From NCBI GenBank assembly GCA_003241965.1, contig QBMB01000001.1:231068-295067 (forward strand): a DNA stretch of 64,000 nt. Direction: 5' to 3'. Origin of the DNA: Burkholderiales bacterium (GTDB taxonomy: Bacteria > Pseudomonadota > Gammaproteobacteria > Burkholderiales > Burkholderiaceae_C). Under the pieces are notes generated by a model. That model ran no database searches, was not told the DNA's origin, and saw only the letters and a program-made list of their open reading frames with translations. The stretch's first letter is position 1. Each line of letters begins with the position of its first letter. This document shows, in pieces, positions 34,897 to 51,895 of this stretch. The translations under genes were made by a program, and so were the position numbers.

Positions 34897-34911
34897 TCCG
34901 GGCCAGACGCA

Positions 34912-35550: not shown

Positions 35551-35559
35551 GTTGCCGTT

Positions 35560-35577
35560 TCCCCCGATATCGGGGGA
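35560..35577. promoter_or_regulatory. Perfect 18-bp palindrome upstream of the virB11 operon (candidate operator)
   Basis: TCCCCCGATATCGGGGGA. Confidence 0.5.
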
Positions 35578-35632
35578 TGTTTGCAGCGTTGAGTAGGGGA
35601 GGTGATGGGGCTTGCGGCCCAAGAATCCTTGT

Positions 35633-36625: not shown

Positions 36626-36674
36626 ATCCCAAACCCCCGCCCTCAACCTTTTTTTCAACCAGGAGAGTCAAACC

Positions 36675-37058: not shown

Positions 37059-37061
37059 GCC

Positions 37062-37367
37062 GTGGCATCACGTACCAGCCCGTTCCACATTTCTCTCCAC
37101 CGGCCCAAGTTGATCATGGGCGTGGAGAAGGGGAGTTTCGCGTTCATCACCTTCATCGGGGTGTTCGCGCTGGTGGCAAAGGCCTATTGGTCGTTCCCCA
37201 TCCTTGTTCTCGCCTACCTCATCGCGCGGTGGGTGACCAAGAAGGACGACCAGTACGTGGGCATCTTGTTGAAGTACCTCAACGAAGACCACGTGTACGA
37301 CGCAACGCCCAGGCCAGAGGACTTCAACCGGCGCCCGCGCGGTTGGGGCAAGGGCTTGCCACGTTGA
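37062..37367 (+). CDS. virB3: VirB3/TrbD
   Basis: HRPKLIMGVE, two TMs, KKDDQ; between pilin and virB4. Confidence 0.85.
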   Translation: MASRTSPFHISLHRPKLIMGVEKGSFAFITFIGVFALVAKAYWSFPILVLAYLIARWVTKKDDQYVGILLKYLNEDHVYDATPRPEDFNRRPRGWGKGLPR

Positions 37368-37428
37368 TCCGAACAGAGGCGCGGCATGTCCGCGCTTCCC
37401 GTTTTTCACCCAACACCTGATCGATCCC

Positions 37429-39969
37429 ATGCTGTCATTCGAAGACCTTTTCACCAAACCGCGCAAGGCAGCCAAGAGCTTTGCTGAATTGCTCCCATGG
37501 TTTGGTCAAGTCACCCCGGGGCTCGTGCTGTGCCAGGACGGGTCGTTGCTCGCTGGCTTCACGTTCGCTGGCGAAGACGTCGAGGGGAAGGAAGATTTTG
37601 AGGTCGATCAGCGCATCAACCAGCTGCAGACAGCCCTGCGGTCCCTCAACGACCGCGTGACGCTCTGGAGTGTCCAAGAGCGCCGCTTCACCGACGGCTA
37701 TCCCTACGGTGAGTTCAGCAATCCAATCTCGCAGCTGATCGACCAGCAGTGGGGTGCTGCCTGCAAGGTGCGTCGAAACGCCATCATCACCCAGCGCCTG
37801 TTTCTGTCCTACAACTTCCCGAACAAGTCCGAGCGGTTCTTCGAAGCTCTCACGGCCGAGATTCAGGAGCACGAAGGGAACATCTTCAAGGCTGCCAGCG
37901 GTCTTATTCGTCGGCGTCTGTCCGAGAAGGGCGCCATCGCCCAGGTGCGCGGCCAGCTGGCTGAGATGGCATCAGAGTTCGAGAAGGTCATCGCCTCGTT
38001 CGCCGGCGTGGTGGAGACAAACCTCGGCTTCCGCAGGCTGGAAGGCGACGAGTTCTTGGGCGAGCTGTATGCCCGCGCGAACCTCGCTTCGCCGCGTGGC
38101 CCGGTGGCCGTGCCCGAAGGCATGCCCTACCTCAACACCACGCTGGCCACAGACAGCATCGAGCGCCAGCACGACCTCCTGAAGTTCAAGGGGGTCACCA
38201 AGACCAGCTACGTCGCAGCCTTGTCCACGACGGGCACCCCGCGCGAAGCCTACAGCCTGCACATGGACAAGCTGATGGGTGCTGATTGCGAGTACGTCCT
38301 GGTGCAATGTTTCCGCTTCCTCGACCGCATGGTTGCGGAGCAGGCCATCCAGAAGGCCGAGATGTTCTACCGTTCCGAGGTGAAGTCGGTCGTCACACGT
38401 GTCTTCGAGCGTCTGTTCGACACCGAGAGCGAGAAGGTCAACACGGGTAACCTGCACTTGGCGCAGGACGCACAGGATGCTCTGGTTGAGCTCACGACCG
38501 AAGACCTCACCTATGGCTACTACAACATGACCATTCTGGCGTTGGGCGAAACCCCACGCCAAGCTGAAGCAGCTGCGGACGTTCTCGCCGGCAATCTGCG
38601 TAGCAACGGGTTCACCATCGTCCGCGAGCGCCACGGTCTGATGGCTGCCCTCCTGACCACCTTCCCCGGAAGCGGCAACGCCACACTGCGCTGGAAGCTT
38701 GCATCGACGGCCAACATCGCCGACCTGGCGCCCATTCGCACCATCACACGCGGGGAAGACACCCACCCGTTGTTCTCGCGCGTGCTTGGGCACCCAGTGC
38801 CGCCGCTGTGCCGCTTCCTCACCCCCTATGGCGTGACGTACGACTTCAACACCCACGAAGGAGACCTTGGCCACACCGCCATCATCGGCGGCTCGGGATC
38901 GGGCAAGACTTCGCTGATGACCTTGTTCGTCGCGCAGTTCCAGAAGTACAACCCCGGCCAGACCTTCATCTTCGACAAGGACTACAGCCTGATGATGGGC
39001 TCGGTTCTCATGGGTGGCAAACACATCGACTCCGGCCCGAAGGGCAAGGACCGTGGCATGAACCCGGTCAAGGTCATGATGCAGAACAACGACGACATGC
39101 GGCTGCGCCAGTGGGTCGAAGTGCTCATCACTGCGGGAGGCAGCGAGGTCAGCCCGAACGAAAGCTCGACCATCTTCACGGCTATCCAAGGGCTGCGTCG
39201 CTCGCCCGAAGCGGCGTGGAGGCTGTCCGGCATCTACGCCCTGATCTCTGGTGAGAACCGAGACCTCGCCTCCAAGCTGGCCCCATATGTCGACCGCTCC
39301 GATGCCGACGACGACTACGGGTCTGGCCCCTATGCCTCGTACTTCGACAACGACGAAGACAACTTCAAGCTGACGCGAATGGTCTGCATGGAATGCGGCG
39401 GCATCCTGGAAACGCCACAGCTGGCCAGCCCATTCATGGACTATGCGTTCTATTGCATCGAACGCGCGCTCAACGGCACCACCCCCACGATGATCTATGT
39501 CGAGGAGGCTTGGTACATGCTGTCCAACCCCACGTTCGCACAGAAGATGGAAGACTGGCTGCGCACCTTCCGTAAGAAGCGCGCCTTCGTGATGTTCGCA
39601 ACCCAAGCGCTGGACGAGATCGCGCGCCTGCCCAACATCGGCAGCTTCGTCACCAACATCCCCTGCCAGATCTTCTTGCCCGCGGTGAAGTCCTCGGTTC
39701 ACGAGCAGGCAGCCTTGTTCCGCTCTGTCTTCGGCACCACAGACGCGCAGATGCAGCTTCTCGCAACTGCAATCCCCAAACGCGACTACCTGCTGGTTCG
39801 CCCGAAAGTCACGCGCCTGGTCAACACGCAGATGCCTGAGGCACTGCTGGCCATCAACGAGGGAACGACGCAGGAAGCGAAGCGCGACGCCCTGATGCAG
39901 TACGCCACGTCGGGTGAGCCCAACTGGGAAATGAAATTCATGAAGGAGGTTCTCAATGTCAAGTGCTAA
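37429..39969 (+). CDS. virB4: VirB4/TrbE ATPase
   Basis: QDGSLL, GHTAIIGGSGSGKTS, FDKDYS, EEAW, LRTFRKK, FATQ. Confidence 0.95.
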   Translation: MLSFEDLFTKPRKAAKSFAELLPWFGQVTPGLVLCQDGSLLAGFTFAGEDVEGKEDFEVDQRINQLQTALRSLNDRVTLWSVQERRFTDGYPYGEFSNPISQLIDQQWGAACKVRRNAIITQRLFLSYNFPNKSERFFEALTAEIQEHEGNIFKAASGLIRRRLSEKGAIAQVRGQLAEMASEFEKVIASFAGVVETNLGFRRLEGDEFLGELYARANLASPRGPVAVPEGMPYLNTTLATDSIERQHDLLKFKGVTKTSYVAALSTTGTPREAYSLHMDKLMGADCEYVLVQCFRFLDRMVAEQAIQKAEMFYRSEVKSVVTRVFERLFDTESEKVNTGNLHLAQDAQDALVELTTEDLTYGYYNMTILALGETPRQAEAAADVLAGNLRSNGFTIVRERHGLMAALLTTFPGSGNATLRWKLASTANIADLAPIRTITRGEDTHPLFSRVLGHPVPPLCRFLTPYGVTYDFNTHEGDLGHTAIIGGSGSGKTSLMTLFVAQFQKYNPGQTFIFDKDYSLMMGSVLMGGKHIDSGPKGKDRGMNPVKVMMQNNDDMRLRQWVEVLITAGGSEVSPNESSTIFTAIQGLRRSPEAAWRLSGIYALISGENRDLASKLAPYVDRSDADDDYGSGPYASYFDNDEDNFKLTRMVCMECGGILETPQLASPFMDYAFYCIERALNGTTPTMIYVEEAWYMLSNPTFAQKMEDWLRTFRKKRAFVMFATQALDEIARLPNIGSFVTNIPCQIFLPAVKSSVHEQAALFRSVFGTTDAQMQLLATAIPKRDYLLVRPKVTRLVNTQMPEALLAINEGTTQEAKRDALMQYATSGEPNWEMKFMKEVLNVKC

Positions 39970-40723
39970 GCGCTCTCTCATCGCCGTCTACGCTTCGATA
40001 CTCGTCACCATCGTTCCTGCCGCCCATGCTGGCGCGGTGGCTGGAGGCGCGTCGGAATGGACGCAGATCATGAACAACGTTCAGCTGGTCAGCTCCGGGA
40101 TGGATGCGGCTCAAACGGCCAAAACGACCATCGACAAGTACATCCTCCAGTACAAGCAATACGAGAACGAGCTTTCCAACCTCCAGAAGTTTTCGCAGCT
40201 GCCACAGAACATTCAGCATGGGGTCCGTTCACTGGAAGACCTCAGAGCCTACAAGTCTCGTTTGGACCGTCTGCACGGCTCGTTGGCTGAGCAGCAAAGG
40301 GTCTTCGAGAAGCGATTCACCGAGGCCCGACTCACCGGTGGGACGTGGGAGGACTACGTCGAGATGGTCAACAAGGACGCGAGCAACAAGAACCAGCGCG
40401 CAATCAGCCGCCTCGAGTACGAGCAGAGCGTCATGAACCAGGTGGAGTCGGACTACGCCGCAGCGCGTGCTCTGGAGCCGAAGATCCAGGAGTCGGTGGG
40501 CGCGCAGCAGTCACTCCAGCTGATGAACACGCAAATGAACCGGTTGGTGCTTCAGAACGCAAAGCTCACCGAGGTCATGGTGGCTTCCATGGGCGAGCAA
40601 ACCATGGAAAACGCCCGCGCAGCCGAGAAGGACAACGCCGACCTGCGGGCCAAGGAAACGATTCGTGCCCGCCAAAAGGCGATCAACGAAAACCTCGAAC
40701 GAAACTCAAAGTCACTTCGCTGA
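39956..40723 (+). CDS. VirB5/TrbJ-like protein
   Basis: AGGASEWTQIMNN and GAQQSLQLMN, typical of TrbJ. Confidence 0.85.
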   Translation: MSSAKRSLIAVYASILVTIVPAAHAGAVAGGASEWTQIMNNVQLVSSGMDAAQTAKTTIDKYILQYKQYENELSNLQKFSQLPQNIQHGVRSLEDLRAYKSRLDRLHGSLAEQQRVFEKRFTEARLTGGTWEDYVEMVNKDASNKNQRAISRLEYEQSVMNQVESDYAAARALEPKIQESVGAQQSLQLMNTQMNRLVLQNAKLTEVMVASMGEQTMENARAAEKDNADLRAKETIRARQKAINENLERNSKSLR

Positions 40724-40753
40724 TCACCTGACCGCAACGACATTGGAAATGCT

Positions 40754-42076
40754 ATGACCGCCTCAGGTAATCAAATCTTCGCGTTCTGGACGGGCTACGT
40801 TGTGGAGCAAGCCATCAACTGGTTGCTCGGGGCGAAGCAAAAGCTCGCCCGACCCAGAAACGTGCTGATGCTCCTACTGGTGGCGTCGGCTTTCGCATCC
40901 TCTTTTGTCGACGCCCAACCGGCAGCGGCACCTGGACTTGATGCGGGGAGCATCGTACCCAGGATCTCGGAAGCGGTGGACACTGCCTTGAATCGTCTGG
41001 GTGAGGGAACACTGAATGGCATGGGGGCGACGATCTCCGCGTTCTTCCTGGTTGCATTGATGGTCTGGACTTCGCTCAAGACCATGGCAGGGGGCAAGGG
41101 CCTTGGTGACCTGATTGGCGAGTGGGTGCCGATTTGGGTGTCGTTTGCCTTCGTCTACGCATTCTTGAACCAAGCCGGCGCAGCAGCGATCACGGGGACG
41201 ATGGATGCCATTGCTACCGCAATCGGGGGAGCGAACATGAGCACCTTGAGTTCAGCTATCGACGTGGTAGCTCGGCCTGTACTCGGCGCAATTATTGAAG
41301 TGGCCAAGATGCCACTGGTGTCCGATGCGGACATGTTCAGCCCGAGCACGTGGGTTCCTGCTCTGGCTGCCAACCTCGGAACTCTGATCACCAAGCTGAT
41401 CACGGTGGTTTTCCTCTTGATCTCGGCCGTCGCTGGGATGGCTACGGTGATCATGTCGTTCATCTCACTGAAACTCGTTTTGTTCTTGGCCCCGGTAATG
41501 GTCCCGTTCGTGATGTTCAAGCCGATGACCTGGCTGTTCGATTCATGGCTCAAGTTTCTCCTCGGTGCTTGCATGATGAAGATCGTTTTGGCGTTCATGC
41601 TCTTGGCTGCACAGGCAATCCTTGGAGCTATGGCGCTGGTCCAGGCGGAGATGGCGGAGGCAGCTAGGAACGTTGAGCCTTCCGCGGCAATGATTGCTGA
41701 TCTGTTTGTACACGCCATGATGATGATTTTTGCCTTGCTGAGCACGCTGCTTCTTATGCAGGTTCCGTCGATCGCCACAGGATTGCTCTCCGGAAGTGCG
41801 GGTGGCGGTGGGTTCTCTGGAATCAAGGGGCTAACGCGGTCGCCCTCAGCCGTCACATCACACGAAGCGGGCGGGAAAGCAGCTTCTGGTGCATCTAAGG
41901 CTGTGGCGGGAACGGTGAAGGGAGGTGAGGGGGCGTGGTCTGGGTACTCGGCTGGTCGTGGCCTTCAGCAGAGCGATCCCGGGGATCGCAAAGGCATTCA
42001 AGGTAAAGCCTACCAAGCGATGTACAACCGCGCGCGCGCAGGAACCCATGGACCTATGGTTCCCAAGGGGCGGTAA
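40754..42076 (+). CDS. VirB6/TrbL-like polytopic membrane protein
   Basis: Many TMs, LAPVMVPFVMFKPMTWLFDSWL, QVPSIATGLLSG, Gly-rich tail. Confidence 0.88.
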   Translation: MTASGNQIFAFWTGYVVEQAINWLLGAKQKLARPRNVLMLLLVASAFASSFVDAQPAAAPGLDAGSIVPRISEAVDTALNRLGEGTLNGMGATISAFFLVALMVWTSLKTMAGGKGLGDLIGEWVPIWVSFAFVYAFLNQAGAAAITGTMDAIATAIGGANMSTLSSAIDVVARPVLGAIIEVAKMPLVSDADMFSPSTWVPALAANLGTLITKLITVVFLLISAVAGMATVIMSFISLKLVLFLAPVMVPFVMFKPMTWLFDSWLKFLLGACMMKIVLAFMLLAAQAILGAMALVQAEMAEAARNVEPSAAMIADLFVHAMMMIFALLSTLLLMQVPSIATGLLSGSAGGGGFSGIKGLTRSPSAVTSHEAGGKAASGASKAVAGTVKGGEGAWSGYSAGRGLQQSDPGDRKGIQGKAYQAMYNRARAGTHGPMVPKGR

Positions 42077-42144
42077 AAAAAGATGCGGCTTGCCTCTTGA
42101 TAACCTCTCGACCGCTGATAGTCTGATAGTCAGAGAGGTTTCAA

Positions 42145-44103
42145 ATGCACATGAGTAGATTTATCACTGTCCCACTAGCCGTACTTTGGTTTGCTATCGC
42201 TGGCAAGGCCTTGCTTGCCTGGCTCTTCGGCGTTTCGATGGAGTTCCCCATCATTGGCGATCCTCCCATGGAGACCGCATTTGGAGCCGCTGCAGCTGCG
42301 ATAACGATCGGGGTTTCGATGTTGCACATCGTCACGGTATGGCTCCTGCGTCGCAACTGGCTTGGGGAGACACTATTTGTATCTTCCTACATCGGCATCA
42401 TTGGCGCCGGACTTGGCTACGGGTTCTGGTGGATGAGTGAGTCGACTGGAGTCATCGGGCATGCCTTCTTCATCGGCATGCTCTTGGTTTGTGGCCTGGT
42501 CATGGCTGGTTTCAAGTCTGGTCTGCTTTTTGCGACCGAGAGAACACGCATGCGCTCAATGGGTGCAAACCAGACTGGATCTGACGTTCAAGCTGACGTC
42601 GCGAGGGCAACCCATCCCAAAACCTCCTTCAAGGACATCTTCGGAAACTCTGATATCAAGGTTCGCCTGAAGGATGCTGCGGAGGCCATCGTCGCTCCCC
42701 GCACGGAAGGGAAGCAGATTCGCAACGGTATTCTTCTCAGTGGTGAGCCAGGAAACGGCAAGACCGTTTTTGCTGAGGCGTTGGCGGGCGAGTTGAAGCT
42801 CCCGTTCCTTCAGCTTTCGTACTCGGACGTGGCCAGCCAGTGGGTTGGCGAGAAGACCTCGCGCATCAACGCGGCGTTCGCACAGGCGCGCCGTCAACAG
42901 CCTTGTGTGCTGTTCATTGATGAGGTGGACAGCTTCTTGGAGTCACGTGACAGCGGCCGCAATGATGGAACGAAGGAAGACCGTGATGTGGTAAATGCGT
43001 TGCTCACGTTGATGGTGGACATCCGCAAGGAAAAGGTCATCCTGATTGCTGCAACCAACCACATCGATCGTTTGGACGGCGCTGGCATCCGTGAAGGTCG
43101 CTTTGACTTCAAGGTGGAGATCACGCCACCCGACCGCGAAGCACGGGTCGGGCTGCTGACACACGGCCTCAAGACTCAACTACCCACGTTCAACGTTGAT
43201 GCCGCCGTTGTAGAGGCTGTGGCGCGGCGCTGGAATGGCTTCTCGGTCAAGCGCATTCTGGCTGTAACAGAAGAACTTCCTTCCTATCTCGCCCGCGAAA
43301 CCAAGACCACGATCGCGTACGAGGACTTCATGGGCGCGCTGCGGATGCTGCAAGGTCGCAAGGGCTCAACGCCCGAGAACGTCAAGCCGATCGCTGAACT
43401 GGTGCTGTCACCCGCCACTCGCGAAATGTTGGACCTGATCGTCGGACGGATGGCTGATCCCGAGCACACAGAGAGCCACGGTGGCACGTTGCCCACAGGC
43501 GTCCTGTTCTTTGGCCCACCAGGCACTGGTAAGACCGCGACCGCCAAGGCGCTCGCCAAGGAGATCGACTGGGCATTCCTGCCTGCCACTGGCGCGGATC
43601 TGGCCCGCGACCCCAAAGCGCTGGAGAAGCTGTACGCAAAGGCGAAGGAACTCCGGCCCTGCGTCATCTTTGTGGATGAGGCCGACGAGTTGCTCAAGAG
43701 CCGCGACTATTCTCCCAACACCGAGTCGACGAACAAGCTCCTGACGCTCATGGATGGTGTCAACGACCGTGTCAAAGATGTGGTGTGGGTAGCCGCGACC
43801 AACAACCCGGAGCAGATCGACGCTGCACTCTTGCGTGGCGGGCGCTTCACCGAAAAGGTGCTGTTCGAAAGGCCATCGGCAGAAGGGTTGGCCGCTTATC
43901 TTGAGGGTTGGTTCACGTCGCGGAAAGTGGCGCTCGAATCAGGCCTCACCTCAGCATCGGTTGCAGAAATGGTGGGTAGCGAGAGCATTGCCAACGCTGA
44001 GGCGTTGGTGCAGGCCGCTCTCAACCGGGCAATCTCACGACGCTCGGCACCAGTGGTGGTGACGCGGGCCGATGTGGAGCAGGCCATGAGGATGGTTCTC
44101 TGA
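42145..44103 (+). CDS. Membrane-anchored double-ring AAA+ ATPase (Cdc48/SpoVK-like)
   Basis: About 4 N-terminal TMs; D1 GEPGNGKT/FIDEVD/REGRFD; D2 GPPGTGKT/FVDEAD/RGGRF. Confidence 0.9.
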   Translation: MHMSRFITVPLAVLWFAIAGKALLAWLFGVSMEFPIIGDPPMETAFGAAAAAITIGVSMLHIVTVWLLRRNWLGETLFVSSYIGIIGAGLGYGFWWMSESTGVIGHAFFIGMLLVCGLVMAGFKSGLLFATERTRMRSMGANQTGSDVQADVARATHPKTSFKDIFGNSDIKVRLKDAAEAIVAPRTEGKQIRNGILLSGEPGNGKTVFAEALAGELKLPFLQLSYSDVASQWVGEKTSRINAAFAQARRQQPCVLFIDEVDSFLESRDSGRNDGTKEDRDVVNALLTLMVDIRKEKVILIAATNHIDRLDGAGIREGRFDFKVEITPPDREARVGLLTHGLKTQLPTFNVDAAVVEAVARRWNGFSVKRILAVTEELPSYLARETKTTIAYEDFMGALRMLQGRKGSTPENVKPIAELVLSPATREMLDLIVGRMADPEHTESHGGTLPTGVLFFGPPGTGKTATAKALAKEIDWAFLPATGADLARDPKALEKLYAKAKELRPCVIFVDEADELLKSRDYSPNTESTNKLLTLMDGVNDRVKDVVWVAATNNPEQIDAALLRGGRFTEKVLFERPSAEGLAAYLEGWFTSRKVALESGLTSASVAEMVGSESIANAEALVQAALNRAISRRSAPVVVTRADVEQAMRMVL

Positions 44104-44702
44104 TGCTGCTTCGGGCGTGCGCTTTTGTAGTCGGCTTCCTTTGCGCATCGGCGCCGGTTTTTGGCCAGCAGGCCTCCACCTCGGCTGGGTCGTTGGGGTC
44201 GATGCCGCTGACGAACGCCACACGGTGTGTGGTCAAGGCTGCAGAGCGGCATTCGGTGAACCCGTGGGTGCTGAAGGCGATCCTCAAGGTGGAAAGCAAC
44301 TTCAAGCCAGGTGCCGTTACCCGCAACACCAACGGTTCGGTTGATCTCGGCATGGCTCAGATCAACTCCATCCATCTCAATGAACTCGCCAAGTACGGTG
44401 TCGGCGAGCAGGACTTGTTGGAGCCTTGCGTCTCGACTTATGTTGCAGCGTGGCACCTCGCCAAGCAACATCGCCGCCATGGCAACACTTGGTTCGCTGT
44501 GGGCGCTTACCACTCAGCTACGCCTTGTTTCAACACCCGGTATGTGGGATTGATCTGGAACACGCTTATCGACTGGAAGGTCGTGGAGGCACAGCGTGCC
44601 GTGGTGCAACCCTTGTCGGCGTGTCGTGCGCGTGGGAGGGCTTCACCGTCTGAGCGGCATGCAGAGGCCACACCAAATGGCCTCCTCGCGTTTGACCACT
44701 GA
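44103..44702 (+). CDS. Lytic transglycosylase (VirB1/IagB-like SLT)
   Basis: AILKVESNF (catalytic Glu), DLGMAQINS, AVGAYHS; signal peptide. Confidence 0.93.
   Translation: MLLRACAFVVGFLCASAPVFGQQASTSAGSLGSMPLTNATRCVVKAAERHSVNPWVLKAILKVESNFKPGAVTRNTNGSVDLGMAQINSIHLNELAKYGVGEQDLLEPCVSTYVAAWHLAKQHRRHGNTWFAVGAYHSATPCFNTRYVGLIWNTLIDWKVVEAQRAVVQPLSACRARGRASPSERHAEATPNGLLAFDH
44511..44702 (+). repeat. Copy 1 of the 192-bp SLT 3' end (in-frame, functional terminus)
   Basis: Encodes HSATPCF...LLAFDH*; immediately preceded by TTAC (44507-44510). Confidence 0.92.
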
Positions 44703-44706
44703 CCAC

Positions 44707-45972
44707 ATGAGCGCATCCGTGATAAAGCGAGCAGCCGTGCTGCGCCTGTACCCGAATCAACAGCAGGTATCGTCCCTGCGTCGATGGCAGGGTGGGCTGC
44801 GCTACGTCTGGAATGCGGTGCTGGACTGCGTGTTCACGTCGCGTGACATAAATGGCCGTTGGCCCACCAAGGCCGAGATGCAGGCCCTCATCGTCGGGAT
44901 GAAGAAGATGGAGGGGACCGAATGGATCGCCGACATCCCCGCGCACGCCCTGTTGACTCTGGCCGACGATCTTTACAAAGCCCTGGTCAACTGGTTCAAC
45001 AGTCTCTCGGGCAAGCGCAAAGGCCCAAAGATTTCCCGTCCCAGATTCCGAGGAAAGTTCGATCGGCAGTTCTCGGTCTACATGGTCAACCAGAACACCT
45101 CGTTCAGCGATGGCCTGGTAAGACTGCCTAAGCTCGGGCAGGTGAAGTTCCGGGCCGGCGACCTGCCTGCCGGACGCCTGTTGTCTAGTCGCGTCTACCG
45201 CGAAGCGAACAAGTGGTACATGGCCAGCATCTTCGAGTGCGATGCACCGGAGATGAATGCTGCACCCGTTGAGTGCATAGGCATCGACATGGGACTCAAG
45301 ACGTTGGCCACTGTCTTTGACGGGCAGGGCATCCGCGAGGTGCCCAAGCTGGGCGCCCTCCGCAGGCATGAGCAGAGGCTGAAGCGATACCAGCGTCGAA
45401 TGAGTCGCAGGGTCAAGGGAAGCAACCGCCGCACCAAGGCAAAGCTGGCTGTTGCACGCCTGCACCAGCGCATCGCCAACATCCGCAAGGACTACGCGCA
45501 CAAGGCCACCAGCGACATCGTAGCCAGTGCGCAGACGATCAAGGTCGAAACCCTCAACGTCAAGGGCTGGGCGAAGAACCGAAGCATTTCCAAGAGCACC
45601 GCCGACGCCAGCGTCGGGATGTTCCTGAACATGCTGCGCTACAAGGCCGCCTGGGCTGGGCGAAGCCTGGTTGAGGTTGGCCAATGGGAGCCGACCAGCA
45701 AGACCTGCAGCGACTGCGGCTCGCACAATGCAACGGTCGTTCTGGGCGTCAGTCGGTGGGTATGCCGCGCGTGCGGCGCGATCCACGACCGCGATCACAA
45801 CGCGGCAAAGAACATTTATGCGTACGGCGAGGAACGCCGAAACGTGACCGGCAACACGGTCGAAAGCGCGTGGACTGGTGGAGATCAGGCGGGAGAAATC
45901 CCGCCAGTGCCCCAGGTTGAAACGCGAATCTTGAAACGGACAGCGCGCAAGTCGAATTGCGCGCTTGCCTAA
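44707..45972 (+). CDS. tnpB: TnpB RNA-guided endonuclease (IS200/IS605 type), RuvC intact, no tnpA
   Basis: RLYPNQQQ HTH; IGIDMG (D), KVETLN (E), TSKTCSDCG...CRACG zinc finger, HDRDHNAAKNI (D). Confidence 0.95.
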   Translation: MSASVIKRAAVLRLYPNQQQVSSLRRWQGGLRYVWNAVLDCVFTSRDINGRWPTKAEMQALIVGMKKMEGTEWIADIPAHALLTLADDLYKALVNWFNSLSGKRKGPKISRPRFRGKFDRQFSVYMVNQNTSFSDGLVRLPKLGQVKFRAGDLPAGRLLSSRVYREANKWYMASIFECDAPEMNAAPVECIGIDMGLKTLATVFDGQGIREVPKLGALRRHEQRLKRYQRRMSRRVKGSNRRTKAKLAVARLHQRIANIRKDYAHKATSDIVASAQTIKVETLNVKGWAKNRSISKSTADASVGMFLNMLRYKAAWAGRSLVEVGQWEPTSKTCSDCGSHNATVVLGVSRWVCRACGAIHDRDHNAAKNIYAYGEERRNVTGNTVESAWTGGDQAGEIPPVPQVETRILKRTARKSNCALA

Positions 45973-46007
45973 AGTAAATAATTCCGCCACTCCGCCACGC
46001 CATGCTT
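45845..46007 (+). ncRNA. Putative TnpB omegaRNA scaffold plus guide (boundaries approximate)
   Basis: Hairpins GGCGGGA-GAAA-TCCCGCC (45888-45905) and AGCGCGCAA-GTCGAA-TTGCGCGCT (45942-45965) overlap the tnpB 3' end, where omegaRNAs are known to lie. Confidence 0.6.
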
Positions 46008-46179
46008 CAACACCCGGTATGTTGGGCTGGTCTGGAACACCCTCATCGACTGGAACGTGGTGCAGGCAGAGCGGGCCGTGGTGCGGCCCTTGTCGGCCTG
46101 CCGTGCGCCTGGGAAAGCCACCTCAACCGCGCGCCAAGCAACAGCCGAATCACCCAACCTCCTCGCGTTTGACCATTGA
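45988..46179 (+). pseudogene. Copy 2 of the SLT 3' end (orphan 63 codons plus stop, no start)
   Basis: Same 192-bp length and frame as copy 1; 46 of 63 aa identical by manual alignment. Confidence 0.92.
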
Positions 46180-46181
46180 AC

Positions 46182-46661
46182 ATGAACAACGACATGCAAA
46201 CCACGGGCGCGCAGCCCAGCGCCATCGGCCCGTTGCTGGCCCTGTTCGAAGCCCTTTCTGAGCAGGATCAGCGCCGCATGTATGCCGTCCTGGGTGCTAT
46301 GGTCGGCGCGGGACCCTCGCCCGCTACAGCAACGGCAGAGCCCGTCACGGCCGAAGAGGGATTGGAGGAACCCAGTGAATTGGTGGCAGTGCAGGAGTGG
46401 TACGCAGGGCTCGGGGATGTGACCGACTATGAGCGCGTATCGCTGCTCAATGAAGCCATCGACAGTGTGCAGGCAGAAGACGCAAGGGCTTTCCTTGTGG
46501 CCCGTCGCCGCGATGTCCTCGACGACAAGCCCTCTGTCTCGGTCCGTGTCGCCGTAACGCGTATCGCAGCTGAGCAGCCTATGCTCATCCTCGGAGCTGC
46601 GGTGGGTGTCTTGCTTGCTGTGGTCAGCTTCGGATCTGGGCTATTCCGCGCCTGGTTCTAG
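46182..46661 (+). CDS. Hypothetical protein with C-terminal TM helix
   Basis: ATG 2 nt after the stop of SLT copy 2. Confidence 0.75.
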   Translation: MNNDMQTTGAQPSAIGPLLALFEALSEQDQRRMYAVLGAMVGAGPSPATATAEPVTAEEGLEEPSELVAVQEWYAGLGDVTDYERVSLLNEAIDSVQAEDARAFLVARRRDVLDDKPSVSVRVAVTRIAAEQPMLILGAAVGVLLAVVSFGSGLFRAWF

Positions 46662-46680
46662 ACCTCAAACACGCTCAACC

Positions 46681-46705
46681 AAGCCAGCATCCGCTGGCTT
46701 TTTTT
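46681..46705 (+). terminator. Intrinsic terminator
   Basis: AAGCCAGC-ATCC-GCTGGCTTTTTTT. Confidence 0.8.
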
Positions 46706-46871
46706 CGCCTGTGCGTGCCGCATTCGCTGAATGAAGGCGCAAAACACGAGGCCGGCTCGCTGCACGTTCGTGTTGAGGGGTCGAGTCCGGTGTCAACGCG
46801 GGGAAGTGGCCTAGTTGACCGGGATCGATCAACGCCCTTTCTACCTAGCATTGGTTCGGAAAGGTAGCGTC

Positions 46872-47654
46872 ATGTCACTGTTCAATCGCAAAAAGCCCGC
46901 CAAGGGCGAATCAATCTTGTCCGCAGATGATGGAGAGTCGGGCTCCCCGCGTCGCGGCAAGTCCAACCCACTTGTCGAGCTGGGTCAGCAACCCAATACG
47001 CCCCCGGCGGTTTTTGGGAAAGCAGACGCCAAGTTTGGCGAGATCTACGGCTCCGCAAAAGTGGAGGCCGCCCGCTGGTTCATCGGCGCGATGTTGGCAC
47101 TACTCCTGGCCATCGTCGCTGTGAGTTCCGTGGCGATGATTCTCCCCTTGAAGGAAGTCCGTCCATGGGTTGTCGAGATCAACCCTGCCACCGGCATCGT
47201 GAACAGACCCGTCCAGGTGGAACGGATCGACCCCAATCTCTCGGTGGTGAAAGCCGAACTCGCTCGCTGGGTGGAAGCCGTTTACACCATCGATCCGCTG
47301 CGTTCTTCCGAATTGCTGCGCTGGGCGAACAGTCGATCTGCTGACAAGGCGGTGGGCCAGTTCACTGAGTTCCGCGGGCGCGAGCGCATCTTTGAGCGGA
47401 TTCGCAACGAGCCAGAAATGGTCCGTGAGGTGAAGGTCACAGCTGTCGATGCCACGCAACGCGGCACGGCATTCATCTTCCTGACCGTCACCGAGCGCGT
47501 CGGCTCCCAAGTACCCAGCGCCGACAAGATCAAGCGGTACCGGGTGACCCTGAACTACCGCCTTACCCCCGCCACCCAGGAAGCCGAGTTGCTGGCCAAC
47601 CCGCTCGGCATCTTGGTCACCTTCTTCAGCGATGCCGAGGAGCGCGCACTGTGA
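46872..47654 (+). CDS. virB8: VirB8/TrbF
   Basis: Single TM, then LPLKEVRPWVVEINPATG; C-terminal ANPLGILVTFF. Confidence 0.9.
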   Translation: MSLFNRKKPAKGESILSADDGESGSPRRGKSNPLVELGQQPNTPPAVFGKADAKFGEIYGSAKVEAARWFIGAMLALLLAIVAVSSVAMILPLKEVRPWVVEINPATGIVNRPVQVERIDPNLSVVKAELARWVEAVYTIDPLRSSELLRWANSRSADKAVGQFTEFRGRERIFERIRNEPEMVREVKVTAVDATQRGTAFIFLTVTERVGSQVPSADKIKRYRVTLNYRLTPATQEAELLANPLGILVTFFSDAEERAL

Positions 47655-48514
47655 TCAACAACCTTTCCAAACCAATCATGCGCCTCCGCGCTATCTCGGT
47701 CGCCGCCCTGGTGGCGTCCAGCTTGTTCGCGGCATTGCCTGCAGCAGCCGAGCTGATCGCCACCCCACTGCGCGGTGACACCCGCCTTGTCGAGTTCCAG
47801 TTCGACCCGGACAACACGTTTCTCGTGTTGAGCAAGCCGCGTGCTGTGACACACCTCCAGTTCGCGCCGGATGAGCAAATCATGTCGGTGGCGGCGGGCG
47901 ACACCTCCAACTGGGAAATCACTCCCACGAAGAATCGCAAGAACCTGTTCCTCAAGCCCAAGTTCGAGGACCTTGAAACGTCGCTTACCGTCCTTACCGA
48001 CAAGCGCCCCTACCAGTTCGTTCTGAAGTCGACCACGGATGGCAAGAAGTGGTACCAGCGCGTCTCTTGGGTCTATTCGAGCCAAGTGGTGCTTGAGCTT
48101 GACCCTGCTGCCGCTTCAGATGCCGAAGAGGCCACCTCGATAGCCGCAGCTAGTCATCAAGGCCCATCAACCTCGCCGTCGGCCGCGCGACCCGAGGGCC
48201 CAGCCGGCATCAATCCAGAGGCAATGCGGTTTAGTTACCGCATTGAGGGCGACGCGAAGTTCAGACCCGAAATCGTTTTCGACGACGGCAGGTTTACCTA
48301 CTTCCGCATGCCGGCAGACCTCCAGGAACAGCCAGCCCTGTTTGCAGTGATCGAAGGCAACGACTTCAGCCTCGTCAACTACACGGTCAACGGCAACTTC
48401 ATCGTGGCTCAGCGCCTCCTCGACAACGCCGTCCTCAAGCTGGGCAAGCCTGAGGTGCGCGTCACCCGGGTTGAGCAAAAGCGCAATTGGTTCGGCCACG
48501 TAGTCAAGGACTGA
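47651..48514 (+). CDS. virB9: VirB9/TrbG
   Basis: LFLKPK, SLTVLTDKRPYQF, FRPEIVFDDGRFTYF, VNY.V.GNFIV. Confidence 0.92.
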   Translation: MINNLSKPIMRLRAISVAALVASSLFAALPAAAELIATPLRGDTRLVEFQFDPDNTFLVLSKPRAVTHLQFAPDEQIMSVAAGDTSNWEITPTKNRKNLFLKPKFEDLETSLTVLTDKRPYQFVLKSTTDGKKWYQRVSWVYSSQVVLELDPAAASDAEEATSIAAASHQGPSTSPSAARPEGPAGINPEAMRFSYRIEGDAKFRPEIVFDDGRFTYFRMPADLQEQPALFAVIEGNDFSLVNYTVNGNFIVAQRLLDNAVLKLGKPEVRVTRVEQKRNWFGHVVKD

Positions 48515-48515
48515 T

Positions 48516-49802
48516 ATGGGACTGTCCAAGGAATCTCTGATCGCCCCGGAGGAGCCCAAACCGGGTATCCCCCTCAAAAAATCGACCCTGGCAGTCCTCG
48601 GCGTTGCCGTGCTGGCTCTTGGCGTCGCTTCGTCAATCATGTTCACCAGTGGCCCGCAGCAACCTGCGGATCTCCTCCAGGCGCAGAAGGACGCGCCGGC
48701 TTCGCAAGTGATCGGCAAGCCGCAGTCCATCGATGAGGAGATCGCAAAGGTTGAGGCCTTGCCCTCGCCGATCCCAGCGTCCGTGCAGCGTCCCGACAGC
48801 AGCGCAGGACTGTATGAAAAGCCGTTGGCGAGTTTGGAAGGCACCAAGGTGACCTCAGTTGTCACTGCCAATCGCGGGCCGACTGAAGAGGCGCAGCAGG
48901 CGGTCATCGACGCTGAGCGCGAGTCGCAGGTGCGCATGGCCAAGGCAATGGTCGTTGACTTTGACGACAAGACGGAGGGTGGCCCTGTTGCCTCACTGGC
49001 GGGCGCTACGCCAGCAGGAATGATGGTCACTGGTGCGCGCGAGCTGCTCGGCGCTGACCAGCGTGGACGTGCTCCTAGCGAAACCGTTTCACCGGCCATC
49101 AACGCTGCCTTGGATCAACTGCGGGGAGCCCAGGCGGTTCCTGCAGGCGGCAAGTCGTGGATGAAGGAGTACGCCGGTGAGATCGAGCAGAAGGCCGGGG
49201 GCAAGGTGCTCAAAGGCTACCAACCTCCATCGAACCTCATCCTGCATCAGGGCAAGGTGATCCCCGCTGTACTGGGGCGCCAGATCAACTCCGATTTGCC
49301 GGGGCGCATCACGGCAATCACCACGGTGGACATCTACGACTCTCTGGGAAAGGGCCAACTCTTGATCCCGAAGGGAAGCACCTTGGATGGCCAATACGAC
49401 GCCGAGGTGAAGGTGGGTCAAAGCCGAATTCTGTTTGGGTTCGAGCGGCTCATCCTCCCCGACGGCACCAGCTTCGACCTTCCACCCGCCCCAGGCTCTG
49501 ACCTTCGCGGTGCTGCCGGCATTTCGGGCGACGTCAACAACCACTTCTTCAAGATGTTCGCGAGCAGCTTGTTCATCGCATTCCTCGCCGACAAAACGAC
49601 ACCGCCGCAGAACGTGACAAACATCGGTGGCGGTGGTGGCACGACCAAGACGGCGGCCGGTGAAGTCCTTGTCGACGTGAGCAAGTCGATTCTCGACCGC
49701 AACAAGGTTATCCCCCCAACCATCACCGTCCCGCAGGGTGAGCGCATCAACGTCGAAGTTGTCTCCGACATGGTGTTTGCCCGCAGCTACTCCAAGCGTT
49801 AA
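48516..49802 (+). CDS. virB10: VirB10/TrbI
   Basis: QGKVIPAVL..INSDLPG, LIPKGS, GQSRILFGFERL, G..GAAG.SGDVNNHF. Confidence 0.93.
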   Translation: MGLSKESLIAPEEPKPGIPLKKSTLAVLGVAVLALGVASSIMFTSGPQQPADLLQAQKDAPASQVIGKPQSIDEEIAKVEALPSPIPASVQRPDSSAGLYEKPLASLEGTKVTSVVTANRGPTEEAQQAVIDAERESQVRMAKAMVVDFDDKTEGGPVASLAGATPAGMMVTGARELLGADQRGRAPSETVSPAINAALDQLRGAQAVPAGGKSWMKEYAGEIEQKAGGKVLKGYQPPSNLILHQGKVIPAVLGRQINSDLPGRITAITTVDIYDSLGKGQLLIPKGSTLDGQYDAEVKVGQSRILFGFERLILPDGTSFDLPPAPGSDLRGAAGISGDVNNHFFKMFASSLFIAFLADKTTPPQNVTNIGGGGGTTKTAAGEVLVDVSKSILDRNKVIPPTITVPQGERINVEVVSDMVFARSYSKR

Positions 49803-49814
49803 GAGGTCTCAAAG

Positions 49815-51476
49815 ATGAAACTCAAGTTCACAAAGATGGCTGCGGCTGTTTGCATCGTTCTTCTGAATGCCAACGTCGCATCGGGCAGCAGCGGTCAGCT
49901 GGTGGGGTCCTACGACTTCTCATACATGACGACTGGCAGCTTGCGTGCCAGTCCGGTTCAGGTGTTTGACGATGGTCGCAACACCTACTTCCAGTTCCGT
50001 GCGGGCGAGGCAATCCCAGCGATCTTTACCCAGCAGAACGGCACCATGCAGCTGCTCGTGCCGTTGCACGAAGGCCCCTACGTGAAGGTCGAGCAAGTCC
50101 ACGGCCAGTTCACCCTCCAACTGGGGCGCGCTCAAGCGATGGTGGTTCATGGCGCCGGTACCCGTCTTGACGCCCCACCCATCCAGGCCGTCGCTCCCAA
50201 TGGCATGACCACGGCCTATCACGGCGGGGAAGTACGACCAGGCACGCGTGTTGTGGCCTCTCTGGCCCCAGCTGCGCCGGCTTTGGTCGACGACGCGCTC
50301 GAGCGCAACAGCTACGCCACTCCAACACGAGGTGACCGTGTGGGCTGGGTCGCTCCTGAGAAACGCGTCCAGGAACACGTCGTCTGGTTCCCTAAGGGCT
50401 CGCACACTCTGGGTCCCATGGGTCGCAAGCTCGTTCAGGGCCTTGCCCGGAGCACATCGGCCTCAGGCCGGTTCATCGTGATGGGGCGTGACGATGAGAG
50501 CTTGAAGGAAGGGCTTGAGCAAGCGCGCGCAGATGCGATGCGCGATGCGCTCGTGGCCTCTGGTGTCGGCCGCGACCGAATCACCACAAAGATTGGCATC
50601 GCAGGCAAGCGTGACAAGAACCTTTGGGAATCGAATATCCGCGTCGAGGTCGAGTCCGAAGCACTGGTGGCCTCCGCACGCCCTGCGCCCTCTCAAGCAG
50701 CCAGCGCTGATGCACGCGGCAACATCCAGTCTCTGATCCGCTCGGGCGTTTTGACGCTCGACCAAGGCAACGCGCTGCTGGCACGTGGTGGCGCGCAGGT
50801 CGCACCATCGACGCAAGTGGCACCTCAGGTGGATGTGCCTCCCGGTGGCTTCCGCATGGTTGCGGCGGACAAGACTGTGCAGACCACGATCCGTCGCTGG
50901 GCGACATCGGTCAACTACACGGTTGTTTGGGAAGTCCCGGCGGACCTGGACGCCCAAGTCTCTGGTGACGCCTTCGTCCAGGCTGGGTCAATCAAAGAAG
51001 CGATTGAGCGCCTGTTGGCAAGCCTTCGCCAAGCCGGGTACAGCCTTGATGCCACGTTCTACAGCAACCGCGTGATCCGCTTCACTGCCTCAGTTGCACA
51101 GAGCCAGGACGGTTCACCAGCGAACGCACCTGCAGCTCGTCCTGCTCGAAACGACCCGACTCCGCAAAAGGCACGCGAAAACACCCTGCAGCAGGCGGTA
51201 ACGAGTGGAGTTCCCAGCGAAGCCTCGGGGCGCAAATGGGCAATGAGGGCCGACGATAAGAGCATCGAACAGATGCTGAGTCGTTGGGGACGTGAGTCGC
51301 ACTGGTCGGTTGTTTGGAACGCGAAAGAGAGTGTGCCGATTGCGGGAGACGCAGTGGTTGAAATGCCCAGCTTCCTGACAGCCGCGGACTACGTGATCGC
51401 TCAAGCGACCAAGGCCGGATACCAGATGCGTGCGACGGCATATGCCAACAACACGCTCGTCGTCAGCAGCTACTGA
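49815..51476 (+). CDS. Multidomain PilL-like protein: VirB9-C-like + OmpA-like + two TcpQ-like domains
   Basis: PVQVFDDGRNTYFQF; ARADAMRDALVASGVGRDRI; TIRRWA..VNYTVVWEV and MLSRWGRESHWSVVWN. Confidence 0.7.
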   Translation: MKLKFTKMAAAVCIVLLNANVASGSSGQLVGSYDFSYMTTGSLRASPVQVFDDGRNTYFQFRAGEAIPAIFTQQNGTMQLLVPLHEGPYVKVEQVHGQFTLQLGRAQAMVVHGAGTRLDAPPIQAVAPNGMTTAYHGGEVRPGTRVVASLAPAAPALVDDALERNSYATPTRGDRVGWVAPEKRVQEHVVWFPKGSHTLGPMGRKLVQGLARSTSASGRFIVMGRDDESLKEGLEQARADAMRDALVASGVGRDRITTKIGIAGKRDKNLWESNIRVEVESEALVASARPAPSQAASADARGNIQSLIRSGVLTLDQGNALLARGGAQVAPSTQVAPQVDVPPGGFRMVAADKTVQTTIRRWATSVNYTVVWEVPADLDAQVSGDAFVQAGSIKEAIERLLASLRQAGYSLDATFYSNRVIRFTASVAQSQDGSPANAPAARPARNDPTPQKARENTLQQAVTSGVPSEASGRKWAMRADDKSIEQMLSRWGRESHWSVVWNAKESVPIAGDAVVEMPSFLTAADYVIAQATKAGYQMRATAYANNTLVVSSY

Positions 51477-51493
51477 GATTCAAGGAAACCAAG

Positions 51494-51895
51494 ATGAACG
51501 CCAAACTTTTCACTCTCGCCTGCATGGTTGCTGCATCGGCATCCAGCCATGCCCAGGTCATCCGCGTGGTCCCGGAGGCCTTCCCGATTCAGGCAGCGCC
51601 CGCCGCAGCCTTACCGATCCGGCCGATGGAGCGTGCTCCAGCGCCCGCCGTTGACCGCGCTCTGCGGATCAAGGCAGGCGACTTGATCTCTCCCCGCATC
51701 GTGGAGTGGGCAGGACGCAATGGCTATGTCCTTTCTTGGCATGCGGGGGAATTCCGTAGCGGCGCCGACCTGGTGCTGACCGATGACTTTGAGAAGTCCT
51801 TGGACGCCTTCCTCGGCTCCATGCGCTTCAACAAGGTTCGCCTCGAAGCCGAGATCTTCGCCAACAACGCCGTTCGAATTCTGGAGGTCAAGTGA
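51494..51895 (+). CDS. TcpQ-domain protein
   Basis: Signal peptide; IVEWAGRNGYVLSW...FANNAVRI. Confidence 0.75.
   Translation: MNAKLFTLACMVAASASSHAQVIRVVPEAFPIQAAPAAALPIRPMERAPAPAVDRALRIKAGDLISPRIVEWAGRNGYVLSWHAGEFRSGADLVLTDDFEKSLDAFLGSMRFNKVRLEAEIFANNAVRILEVK

What the first reader, a model, noticed from the sequence alone, without database searches (positions are those of the whole stretch)
44507..46179. Candidate RNA-guided homing element with a recoded rescue: tnpB between two diverged copies of the SLT gene end
Seen: the architecture is SLT 5' part-TTAC|copy 1 (44511-44702)-CCAC-tnpB-omegaRNA-like hairpins-|copy 2 (45988-46179). Both copies are exactly 192 bp, begin at the same His codon and share 46 of 63 aa, so this is not a target-site duplication. 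The first 20 nt differ only at synonymous third positions (CACTCAGCTACGCCTTGTTT versus CACTCCGCCACGCCATGCTT; mismatches at 6, 9, 15, 18). There is no tnpA and no room for a left-end hairpin. Established: TnpB takes its guide from the DNA just 3' of the element and cuts TAM plus guide; TTAC is a known IS605-family target motif; the RuvC D/E/D residues are intact here. Inference: the guide (copy 2) would cut uninvaded SLT alleles at TTAC|CACTCCGCC. The occupied allele is immune because copy 1 has the TAM but seed mismatches and copy 2 has the match but no TAM. The conjugation gene stays functional. This is a natural, transposase-free gene drive or plasmid-competition weapon aimed at a conserved transfer gene.
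Basis: partly seen in the sequence, partly recalled or inferred. Interest (0 to 1): 0.92.

Follow-up and report, generated by a model that had tools for sequence, protein, structure and literature searches.

The report
Stranded tnpB nuclease inside conjugation gene
A guide-RNA nuclease gene (tnpB) left behind by a decayed transposon sits inside a plasmid transfer gene that was repaired with a borrowed, mismatched gene end, so its guide still matches intact rival versions of that gene; this is a neat, testable natural example, but it was found in one lineage only.

Summary
An SLT (VirB1-like) gene ends in copy 1 (44510-44702), followed by tnpB (44707-45972) and copy 2 (45987-46179). The copies match at 148/192 nt and 46/63 aa.

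- **Not IS605/TTAC.** Relatives at 80-89% DNA identity are transposons with 24-bp inverted ends, a DDE transposase of the IS1595 family and perfect 8-bp target duplications. TA precedes the duplication in 6 of 7 insertions.
- **What remains in the window.** Only tnpB, a conserved guide-RNA (omegaRNA-like) scaffold and the right inverted end (ending at 45986) remain.
- **Empty alleles exist.** In L201-L203 the SLT gene is directly followed by the 46182 gene. They read TA plus a 26/26 match to 45987-46012. Copy 2 is 191/192 identical to L201.
- **Copy 1 is not a recoding.** It belongs to a diverged tract (~44375-44710, dS 0.75) with no break at 44510. This is an allele swap by recombination, joined to tnpB at an 11-nt microhomology.

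The predicted logic holds on sequence: rival alleles cleavable, own allele immune. Spread is not shown: the three contigs that carry it are one lineage. TnpB-driven plasmid gene drive is already published.

The parts
44103..44702 (+). SLT / VirB1-like lytic transglycosylase gene of the T4SS operon, intact at 199 aa, ending in copy 1
   Evidence: Pfam SLT, E 9.6e-18. Relatives in the same operon position are also 199 aa.
44375..44710 (+). Diverged ('X-type') tract, about 75-80% identical to the empty alleles and embedded in a backbone that is 94-99% identical to them. It contains copy 1, the SLT stop and the ATGA.
   Evidence: Mismatch map against L201/L202, sliding identity and BLAST segments.
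44508..44509 (+). TA dinucleotide just 5' of the insertion-point octamer; candidate TAM or target preference of this family
   Evidence: TA precedes the 8-bp target duplication in 6 of 7 independent insertions, counting this site, and also in the empty alleles. Chance is about 3e-11 at the window's TA frequency.
44510..44702 (+). Copy 1: functional 3' end of SLT (63 codons plus stop); 148/192 nt and 46/63 aa identical to copy 2
44693..44713 (+). Left junction. TGACCAC occurs twice in tandem, followed by ATGAGCG. The 11 nt at 44700-44710 match the transposase-stop/tnpB-start of relatives at 10/11, and also resemble the SLT-stop/next-gene-start of the empty allele.
44707..45972 (+). tnpB, 421 aa, intact RuvC D/E/D and zinc finger. 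Its ATG sits where the next gene's ATG sits in empty alleles.
   Evidence: Pfam OrfB_IS605, Cas12f1-like_TNB and HTH_OrfB_IS605. ISDra2 TnpB structures match at E 1.6e-65. Relatives are 82-88% identical in aa.
45806..45986 (+). omegaRNA-scaffold-like region overlapping the tnpB 3' end. It is nearly invariant at the nucleotide level in 15 loci, and similarity ends abruptly after 45986.
   Evidence: Alignment A2 and consensus fold. No Rfam family matched.
45938..45970 (+). Terminal stem-loop of the scaffold, with compensatory base changes among relatives
   Evidence: pairs at columns 202-234; four of these pairs have changes on both sides.
45963..45986 (+). Right terminal inverted repeat (24 bp) of the IS1595-type element; the only such repeat in the genome
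   Evidence: Left and right ends of relatives compared. A pattern search of the own genome found one site only.
45987..46006 (+). Guide-equivalent 20 nt (first 8 nt are the target-duplication octamer CCACTCCG); identical to intact SLT alleles L201-L203
   Evidence: No other site within 3 mismatches in the own genome.
45987..46179 (+). Copy 2: untranslated remnant of the original ('Y-type') SLT 3' end. It is 191/192 identical to the empty allele L201 and 63/63 aa identical to P0123/P0126.
46182..46661 (+). Downstream 159-aa T4SS gene that directly follows SLT in empty alleles
   Evidence: 457/480 nt identical to L201.

Best explanation
This is the immobile remnant of a TnpB-carrying transposon of the IS1595 type (terminal inverted repeats, DDE transposase, 8-bp target duplication).

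Proposed history:
1. The transposon inserted into the SLT gene of a 'Y-type' type IV secretion operon at TA|CCACTCCG.
2. The stretch from the conserved SLT core, through the left inverted repeat, to the end of the transposase gene was later replaced by about 335 bp from a diverged ('X-type') SLT allele.
3. The left crossover was homologous, near 44375. The right join was illegitimate, in an 11-nt microhomology (TGACCACATGA versus TGACCGCATGA) at the transposase-stop/tnpB-start.
4. This restored a full-length SLT gene, put the tnpB start codon in the translational slot of the next gene, and left tnpB, the omegaRNA scaffold, the right inverted repeat and the old Y-type SLT end.

Predicted consequence. 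By the established TnpB mechanism, the RNA made across 45986 carries a guide identical to intact Y-type SLT alleles (TA plus 20/20). It should therefore cleave such alleles on rival or incoming plasmids. The rival plasmid would then be lost, or converted by homologous repair from this locus. The carrier's own copies should escape: copy 1 has seed mismatches, and copy 2 has no TA.

Shown here: the anatomy, the element family, the empty alleles, the guide match and the mosaic origin. Inferred: the order of events, expression of the RNA, cleavage, and any drive or competition benefit.
For: - **Element family.** The conserved module runs ~44700-45986 in 20 related loci. Full elements carry an IS1595-family transposase overlapping tnpB by ATGA. 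They have 24-bp inverted ends and perfect 8-bp duplications in 5 independent insertions, plus one 7/8. TA precedes the duplication in 6 of 7.
- **What the window lacks.** It has one inverted repeat, and no cognate transposase was found anywhere in the genome assembly.
- **RNA scaffold.** Nucleotide-level conservation ends at 45986, with compensatory pairs in the terminal stem.
- **Empty alleles.** L201-L203 read TA plus a 26/26 match.
- **Mosaic origin.** Against L201 the window is 94% identical upstream, 86% over 42589-44710, and 97.8% from exactly 45987 onward. The mismatch map shows the diverged tract starting near 44375, with no step at 44510. Copy 2 is 191/192 to L201. Copy 1 versus copy 2 gives dS 0.75 and dN 0.17.
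- **Junction.** The junction sequences are compared.
- **Nuclease.** TnpB is intact and ISDra2-like.
- **Precedent.** TnpB-mediated drive and conjugative-plasmid competition have been shown experimentally.
Against: - No X-type donor allele was found. The best match to copy 1 is only 50/63 aa.
- The order of events is inferred, and the exact crossover within 44700-44710 cannot be placed.
- The backbone is mosaic elsewhere too, so the left edge of the tract is approximate.
- TA could reflect the transposase's target preference rather than the nuclease's TAM.
Confidence: 0.65

Rival explanations
1. [copy 1-tnpB-omegaRNA] is a transposase-free homing element that actively spreads among SLT alleles. 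TnpB cuts uninvaded alleles, repair copies the cassette, and the mismatched gene end it carries keeps the conjugation gene working.
For: - Perfect guide match with TA in natural empty alleles.
- The own allele is immune on sequence grounds.
- TnpB and the RNA scaffold are intact.
- A Y-type backbone carrying a short X-type tract left of the cassette is also what homing with co-conversion would leave.
- TnpB gene drive in plasmids has been shown experimentally.
- A second, unrelated tnpB in a related T4SS is likewise flanked by a diverged 54-bp duplication that keeps both neighbouring genes intact (L209).
Against: - Only one lineage carries the cassette (0 and 3 differences in 5-9 kb).
- None of 13 other loci of the same tnpB family shows a comparable duplication.
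- Copy 1's mismatches equal the tract's average divergence and continue upstream of the insertion point, so nothing points to selection for recoding.
- The IS605/TTAC premise is wrong.
- The first origin still needs the insertion-plus-recombination history.
Confidence: 0.2
2. Inert relic. The nuclease and RNA are no longer made or active, and the arrangement is a recent neutral by-product of insertion and repair, with no present function.
For: - No transposase and only one inverted repeat, so the cassette cannot move.
- Copy 2 is still 191/192 identical to a natural allele, so the event is recent and an intact ORF need not reflect selection.
- No Rfam hit.
Against: - tnpB is full length with its catalytic residues.
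- The scaffold is as conserved as in mobile relatives.
- tnpB sits in a translationally coupled slot of an operon whose other genes are intact.
Confidence: 0.13
3. Assembly chimera: two SLT alleles from different plasmids joined by the assembler across a tnpB repeat.
For: The genome is a 177-contig draft, and diverged alleles coexist in related samples.
Against: - The same junctions occur in two other independent assemblies.
- tnpB is single-copy in the genome.
- No second SLT allele is present in the genome.
Confidence: 0.02

Closest known systems
IS200/IS605 TnpB-omegaRNA systems (ISDra2 type; guide taken from DNA 3' of the right end; cleavage of the empty site restores the element by recombination)
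   Same: The nuclease is homologous to ISDra2 TnpB (E 1.6e-65). The RNA scaffold overlaps the tnpB 3' end and stops at the element end, with the flanking DNA in the guide position.
   Different: The carrier is not IS605-type. Relatives have terminal inverted repeats, 8-bp target duplications and an IS1595-family DDE transposase, with TA rather than TTAC/TTGAT next to the target. The window has no transposase and no left end.
TnpB-driven gene drive of IS in plasmids and conjugative-plasmid competition (Mears et al., bioRxiv 10.1101/2025.02.20.638934)
   Same: A TnpB element in a transfer region of a large conjugative replicon, whose guide matches the uninserted version of a conserved plasmid sequence.
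   Different: That work used complete IS605 elements at neutral sites. Here the insertion lies inside a transfer gene's coding sequence, the gene is repaired by a diverged allele end, and the element cannot transpose. Nothing was tested experimentally here.
Intronless (collinear) homing by free-standing homing endonuclease genes in T-even phages (own knowledge)
   Same: A nuclease gene sits between genes. Its target lies in the neighbouring gene of relatives that lack it, and its own genome escapes through polymorphisms at the site. Flanking markers are co-converted.
   Different: The specificity is RNA-guided, and the host is a plasmid or ICE rather than a phage. Spread has not been demonstrated here.
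IStrons (TnpB elements fused to group I introns that splice out of host genes; own knowledge, Zedaveinyte et al. 2024)
   Same: A TnpB element resides in a gene without destroying that gene's function.
   Different: No intron is present (no Rfam hit). Function is kept at the DNA level by a duplicate gene end.
Prokaryotic TnpB linked to DDE transposases (ISL2, IS630 and IS1031 listed in review PMC13565253)
   Same: TnpB travels inside an element with terminal inverted repeats and a DDE transposase.
   Different: IS1595 is not among the families listed there. A full-text search for IS1595 plus TnpB found no paper whose title or abstract concerns it.
Integrative elements that bring a replacement 3' end for the gene they split (tRNA/tmRNA-targeting islands and prophages; own knowledge)
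   Same: The split gene is completed by a slightly different copy of its 3' end, leaving a displaced remnant on the other side.
   Different: Those use site-specific recombinases and carry the replacement as part of attP. Here the replacement came from allele recombination.

Membership tests
TnpB / OMEGA RNA-guided nuclease | RuvC-like nuclease with D/E/D and a zinc finger; OrfB_IS605 and TNB domains | tested here: met
   Pfam E 1.2e-28 and 5.1e-23. Alignment to TnpB structures covers GIDMG, VETLN and HDRDHNAA.
TnpB / OMEGA RNA-guided nuclease | Structured RNA scaffold overlapping the 3' end of tnpB and ending at the element boundary, guide supplied by flanking DNA | tested here: met
   About 180 nt are near-invariant in 15 loci, similarity is lost after 45986, and the terminal stem has compensatory pairs. 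Transcription was not tested and there is no Rfam model hit.
TnpB / OMEGA RNA-guided nuclease | Guide- and TAM-dependent DNA cleavage | not testable with these tools
   Only the sequence match was tested: TA plus 20/20 in L201-L203.
IS200/IS605 family element | Y1 (HUH) TnpA, subterminal hairpins, no inverted repeats, no target duplication, insertion 3' of a TTAC-like motif | tested here: not met
   Relatives have 24-bp inverted repeats, 8-bp duplications and a DDE transposase. The true boundary is TTA|C.
IS1595-family insertion sequence | DDE_Tnp_IS1595 transposase with an N-terminal zinc ribbon | tested here: not met
   It is present in relatives (PF12762 E 3.8e-32 and PF12760). It is absent from the window and was not found in the genome assembly. 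The window holds a remnant, not a member.
IS1595-family insertion sequence | Two terminal inverted repeats flanked by an 8-bp target duplication | tested here: not met
   Only the right repeat is present. The octamers CCACTCAG and CCACTCCG match at 7/8, but the left one is followed by SLT sequence, not by a left end.
Homing element / gene drive | Nuclease target present in empty alleles and absent or protected in the occupied allele | tested here: met
   empty alleles match perfectly with TA; copy 1 has mismatches at 7, 10, 16 and 19; copy 2 is preceded by CG. This holds at the sequence level only.
Homing element / gene drive | The same cassette found in several independent backgrounds (evidence of spread) | tested here: not met
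   Three contigs, all one lineage. None of 13 other family loci has a comparable flanking duplication.
IStron | Group I intron fused to the element | tested here: not met
   No Rfam match in 43500-47000 at E up to 1.

The most novel reading that the evidence does not exclude
The cassette is a working, transposase-independent homing and plasmid-competition device. It would be expressed with the transfer operon and would cut Y-type SLT alleles of rival conjugative elements, then either eliminate them or convert them, co-converting the immune gene end. The same architecture (a diverged copy of the split gene end, then tnpB, then the remnant serving as guide) may be a recurrent way for TnpB elements to settle inside tightly packed essential transfer operons. 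A second case with an unrelated tnpB in L209 hints at this.
Probability: 0.2. Interest if true: 0.85.

Novelty: new variant of a known kind. Interest (0 to 1): 0.55.

Why it matters
If the nuclease is active, this is a natural case of an RNA-guided nuclease locked at no cost inside a conserved conjugation gene and aimed at the unmodified allele carried by related plasmids. That would be a DNA-level counterpart of intronless homing, and of the plasmid gene drive recently shown in the laboratory. The target, the immune allele and natural empty alleles are all in hand, so it can be tested directly.

It also documents a TnpB lineage carried by IS1595-type DDE transposons, in which the first 8 nt of the guide are the target-site duplication. 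This extends the short list of DDE-linked TnpB systems. It also bears on how a guide nuclease can serve a transposon that makes target duplications.

If the cassette is inactive, it is an instructive example of how recombination between diverged plasmid alleles repairs an insertion in a transfer gene.

Tried and rejected
- **Rfam scan** of 43500-47000 at E up to 1: nothing found, so no known omegaRNA or intron model.
- **Own genome:** no second tnpB copy, no second SLT allele, no other guide-like site, no cognate transposase, and only one inverted repeat.
- **Plasmid collection and 60 relatives' genomes:** only relatives at about 71% identity of the operon, too far to map breakpoints. The useful empty alleles came from protein look-ups.
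- **Family-level genome search for TnpB:** only relatives at 33-48% identity. The genome-contig scan likewise gave about 40% at most.
- **Flanking duplications in 13 other loci of the family:** none comparable. One 61-bp match in L037 lies far from the element ends.
- **Origin of copy 1:** an in-situ duplication followed by recoding is rejected because dS is 0.75 and the diverged tract continues upstream of 44510.
- **Search for the X-type donor allele:** not found.
- **L202/L203:** the 492-aa TnpB-like insertion first looked like another gene-end duplication. It reads better as an ordinary insertion with a 7-bp repeat and an early stop supplied by the element.
- **Literature:** no paper on IS1595-linked TnpB was found by title or abstract.
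Full report
**1. Observation.**
- The SLT ORF is 44103-44702 (199 aa; Pfam SLT).
- tnpB is 44707-45972 (421 aa; OrfB_IS605, Cas12f1-like TNB and HTH domains).
- The next operon gene starts at 46182.
- Two direct copies of the SLT 3' end flank tnpB. BLAST aligns 44510-44698 with 45987-46175 at 77.6% (E 8e-39). Ungapped they share 148/192 nt and 46/63 aa.
- Homology begins one base earlier than reported, at the C of 'TTAC', so the boundary is TTA|CCACTC.
- The locus lies in a VirB-like type IV secretion operon: VirB6-like gene, double-AAA ATPase, SLT, [tnpB], 159-aa gene, VirB8, VirB9, VirB10.
- The contig belongs to a genome whose nearest annotated relatives are Hydrogenophaga megaplasmids.

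**2. What kind of element this is.**
TnpB proteins 82-88% identical exist in metagenomes. I fetched 20 loci carrying them.
- Their DNA is homologous to the window from about 44700 to 45986 and not beyond.
- The right end is the conserved 14-mer AGTAAATAATTCCG, after which the loci share nothing.
- In most loci tnpB is preceded, with an ATGA overlap, by a DDE transposase of the IS1595 family. Pfam gives PF12762 at E 3.8e-32 plus the IS1595 zinc ribbon.
- The elements have 24-bp terminal inverted repeats, 19-21 of 24 matching.
- They have perfect 8-bp target duplications in five independent insertions, and 7/8 in a sixth.
- Some copies have lost the transposase but keep both repeats (L032, L037, L046).
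- Counting the window's own site, the two bases 5' of the duplication are TA in 6 of 7 insertions. Chance is about 3e-11 at the window's TA frequency.

So this is not an IS200/IS605 element and TTAC is not its target. A 2026 review lists ISL2, IS630 and IS1031 as DDE partners of prokaryotic TnpB, not IS1595. A full-text search found no paper whose title or abstract concerns IS1595-linked TnpB.

**3. The RNA.**
- From about 45806 to 45986 the 15 aligned loci are almost invariant at the nucleotide level, third codon positions included. Similarity stops at 45986.
- The consensus fold has a terminal stem (45938-45970) with compensatory changes on both sides in four pairs.
- This is what an omegaRNA scaffold overlapping the tnpB 3' end looks like, although Rfam has no matching model.
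- The guide position therefore starts at 45987, the first base of copy 2. Its first 8 nt correspond to the target duplication.
- TnpB itself aligns end to end with ISDra2 TnpB structures (E 1.6e-65), and the alignment shown (to a designed homologue, 9yyg) has the catalytic D, E and D and the zinc finger in place.

**4. Empty alleles.**
- SLT proteins 79-85% identical were found.
- Copy 2 is 63/63 identical to the C-termini of P0123 and P0126. Copy 1 has no match better than 50/63.
- The contig encoding P0123 (L201) has AAA ATPase, SLT, the 159-aa gene and VirB8 with no tnpB.
- At the homologous position, L201, L202 and L203 read gcgTA followed by a 26/26 match to 45987-46012.

The putative guide matches a natural, intact allele preceded by the family's TA.

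**5. Origin of copy 1.**
- Against L201 the window is 94% identical over 34103-42251, 86% over 42589-44710, and 97.8% from exactly 45987 to 56179.
- Against L202 it is about 99% identical over 41600-43400.
- Copy 2 differs from L201 at 1 of 192 positions.
- The base-by-base map across SLT shows about 95% identity over 44223-44374. From about 44375 to 44702 there is dense mismatch (20-25%), with no step at 44510.
- Copy 1 versus copy 2 gives dS 0.75 and dN 0.17. This is old divergence under purifying selection, meaning two alleles that evolved as working genes.

Copy 1 is therefore not a recoded copy. It is the end of a tract of about 335 bp from a diverged allele, set in a Y-type backbone. Four mismatches in the first 20 nt is simply the tract's average divergence.

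**6. The left junction.**
- The window reads TT-TGACCAC-TGACCAC-ATGAGCG.
- Relatives read TGACCGCATGAG at the transposase-stop/tnpB-start.
- The empty allele reads TTTGACCATTGAACATGAAC at the SLT-stop/next-gene-start.

The join lies within 44700-44710, in microhomology. The tnpB ATG occupies the place of the next gene's ATG.

**7. History and mechanism.**
The most economical history has two steps:
1. The IS1595-type element inserted into a Y-type SLT at TA|CCACTCCG.
2. The stretch from the SLT core, through the left repeat and the transposase gene, was replaced from a diverged allele. The crossover was homologous in the conserved core and illegitimate at the microhomology. Selection for a working transfer gene would favour this.

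What remains cannot transpose:
- There is one inverted repeat in the whole genome.
- No cognate transposase was found in the assembly. The assembly is 99.97% complete by marker genes but has 177 contigs.
- There is no second tnpB copy.

By the established TnpB mechanism, the retained nuclease and RNA should cleave TA-flanked Y-type SLT alleles. The carrier should be immune:
- Copy 1 has mismatches at guide positions 7, 10, 16 and 19.
- Copy 2 is preceded by CG.
- The genome has no other site within 3 mismatches and no other SLT allele.

Experiments with IS605 elements on plasmids have shown drive within multicopy plasmids and an advantage in conjugative-plasmid competition. They also showed enrichment of such IS near transfer genes. 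The predicted consequence is therefore plausible but untested here.

**8. Is it spreading?**
- The identical SLT protein occurs on two further contigs. Both carry the same structure, with 0 differences in 5188 nt and 3 in 8600 nt.
- That rules out an assembly artefact, but it is one lineage.
- None of 13 other loci of the same tnpB family has a comparable flanking duplication.
- The mosaic (Y-type backbone with a short X-type tract left of the cassette) is also what homing with co-conversion would leave, so the data cannot exclude past homing. They do not require it.

**9. Related observations.**
This T4SS family is repeatedly colonised by tnpB-type genes.
- L202/L203 have a 492-aa TnpB-like gene between the AAA ATPase and SLT. 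It looks like an ordinary insertion.
- One NCBI contig (L032/L209/L210) has four such genes in its transfer operon.
- One of them, an unrelated tnpB (38% aa identity), is flanked by a 54-bp duplication at 85% identity. The duplication covers the VirB4 3' end and the start of the next gene, and its right copy starts at the element's right end. Both neighbouring genes stay intact.
- This hints that the architecture may recur, but 167 bp of unexplained sequence lies between the left copy and that element.

**10. Verdict.**
The guide, target and immunity logic and the empty alleles hold. The IS605/TTAC framing, the 'recoding' and the claim of an evolved gene drive do not.
- It is a new variant of a known kind.

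Noticed in passing
L035, L038, L039/L052, L043, L044, L045/L048 (related loci): A TnpB lineage is carried by complete IS1595-family DDE transposons. They have 24-bp inverted repeats and perfect 8-bp target duplications, the transposase stop overlaps the tnpB start (ATGA), and TA precedes the duplication. The first 8 nt of the guide are therefore the target duplication. IS1595 is not among the DDE partners of TnpB listed in review PMC13565253.
   Followed up: partly
L209:5973-6026 and L209:7589-7642: An unrelated tnpB (434 aa, 38% identical) in the transfer operon of an NCBI contig is flanked by a 54-bp duplication at 85% identity. The duplication covers the VirB4 3' end, the ribosome-binding site and the first codons of the next gene. 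The right copy starts at the element's right end, and both genes stay intact. About 167 bp between the left copy and the element are unexplained.
   Followed up: partly
L202:8523-10001 and L203:5347-6825: A 492-aa TnpB-like gene (only the TNB domain is recognised) is inserted between the AAA ATPase and SLT genes, with its stop overlapping the SLT start. GGATGAT is repeated at both sides, and the ATPase gets a slightly different C-terminus.
   Followed up: partly
L210:5036-8400: On the same contig as L209, the slot between the AAA ATPase and VirB8 holds a 145-aa gene without an SLT domain, a third tnpB (87% identical to the L209 one) and a TnpB fragment. This transfer operon therefore holds four tnpB-type genes.
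   Followed up: no
window 40900-41500 and 43800-44200: Further patches of 72-85% identity to L201/L202 lie within a backbone that is otherwise 94-100% identical (VirB6-like gene; AAA ATPase C-terminus and SLT signal region). Allele mosaicism in this operon is therefore common.
   Followed up: partly
window 44612 (in copy 1): One of the only three differences between the window and contig L207 falls inside copy 1 (C versus T). The other two are at 40710 and 40975.
   Followed up: no
window 42145-44103: A membrane-anchored double-AAA ATPase sits in the T4SS operon and is conserved in all related operons seen (L015, L201, L202, L210). It is not a standard VirB component.
   Followed up: no
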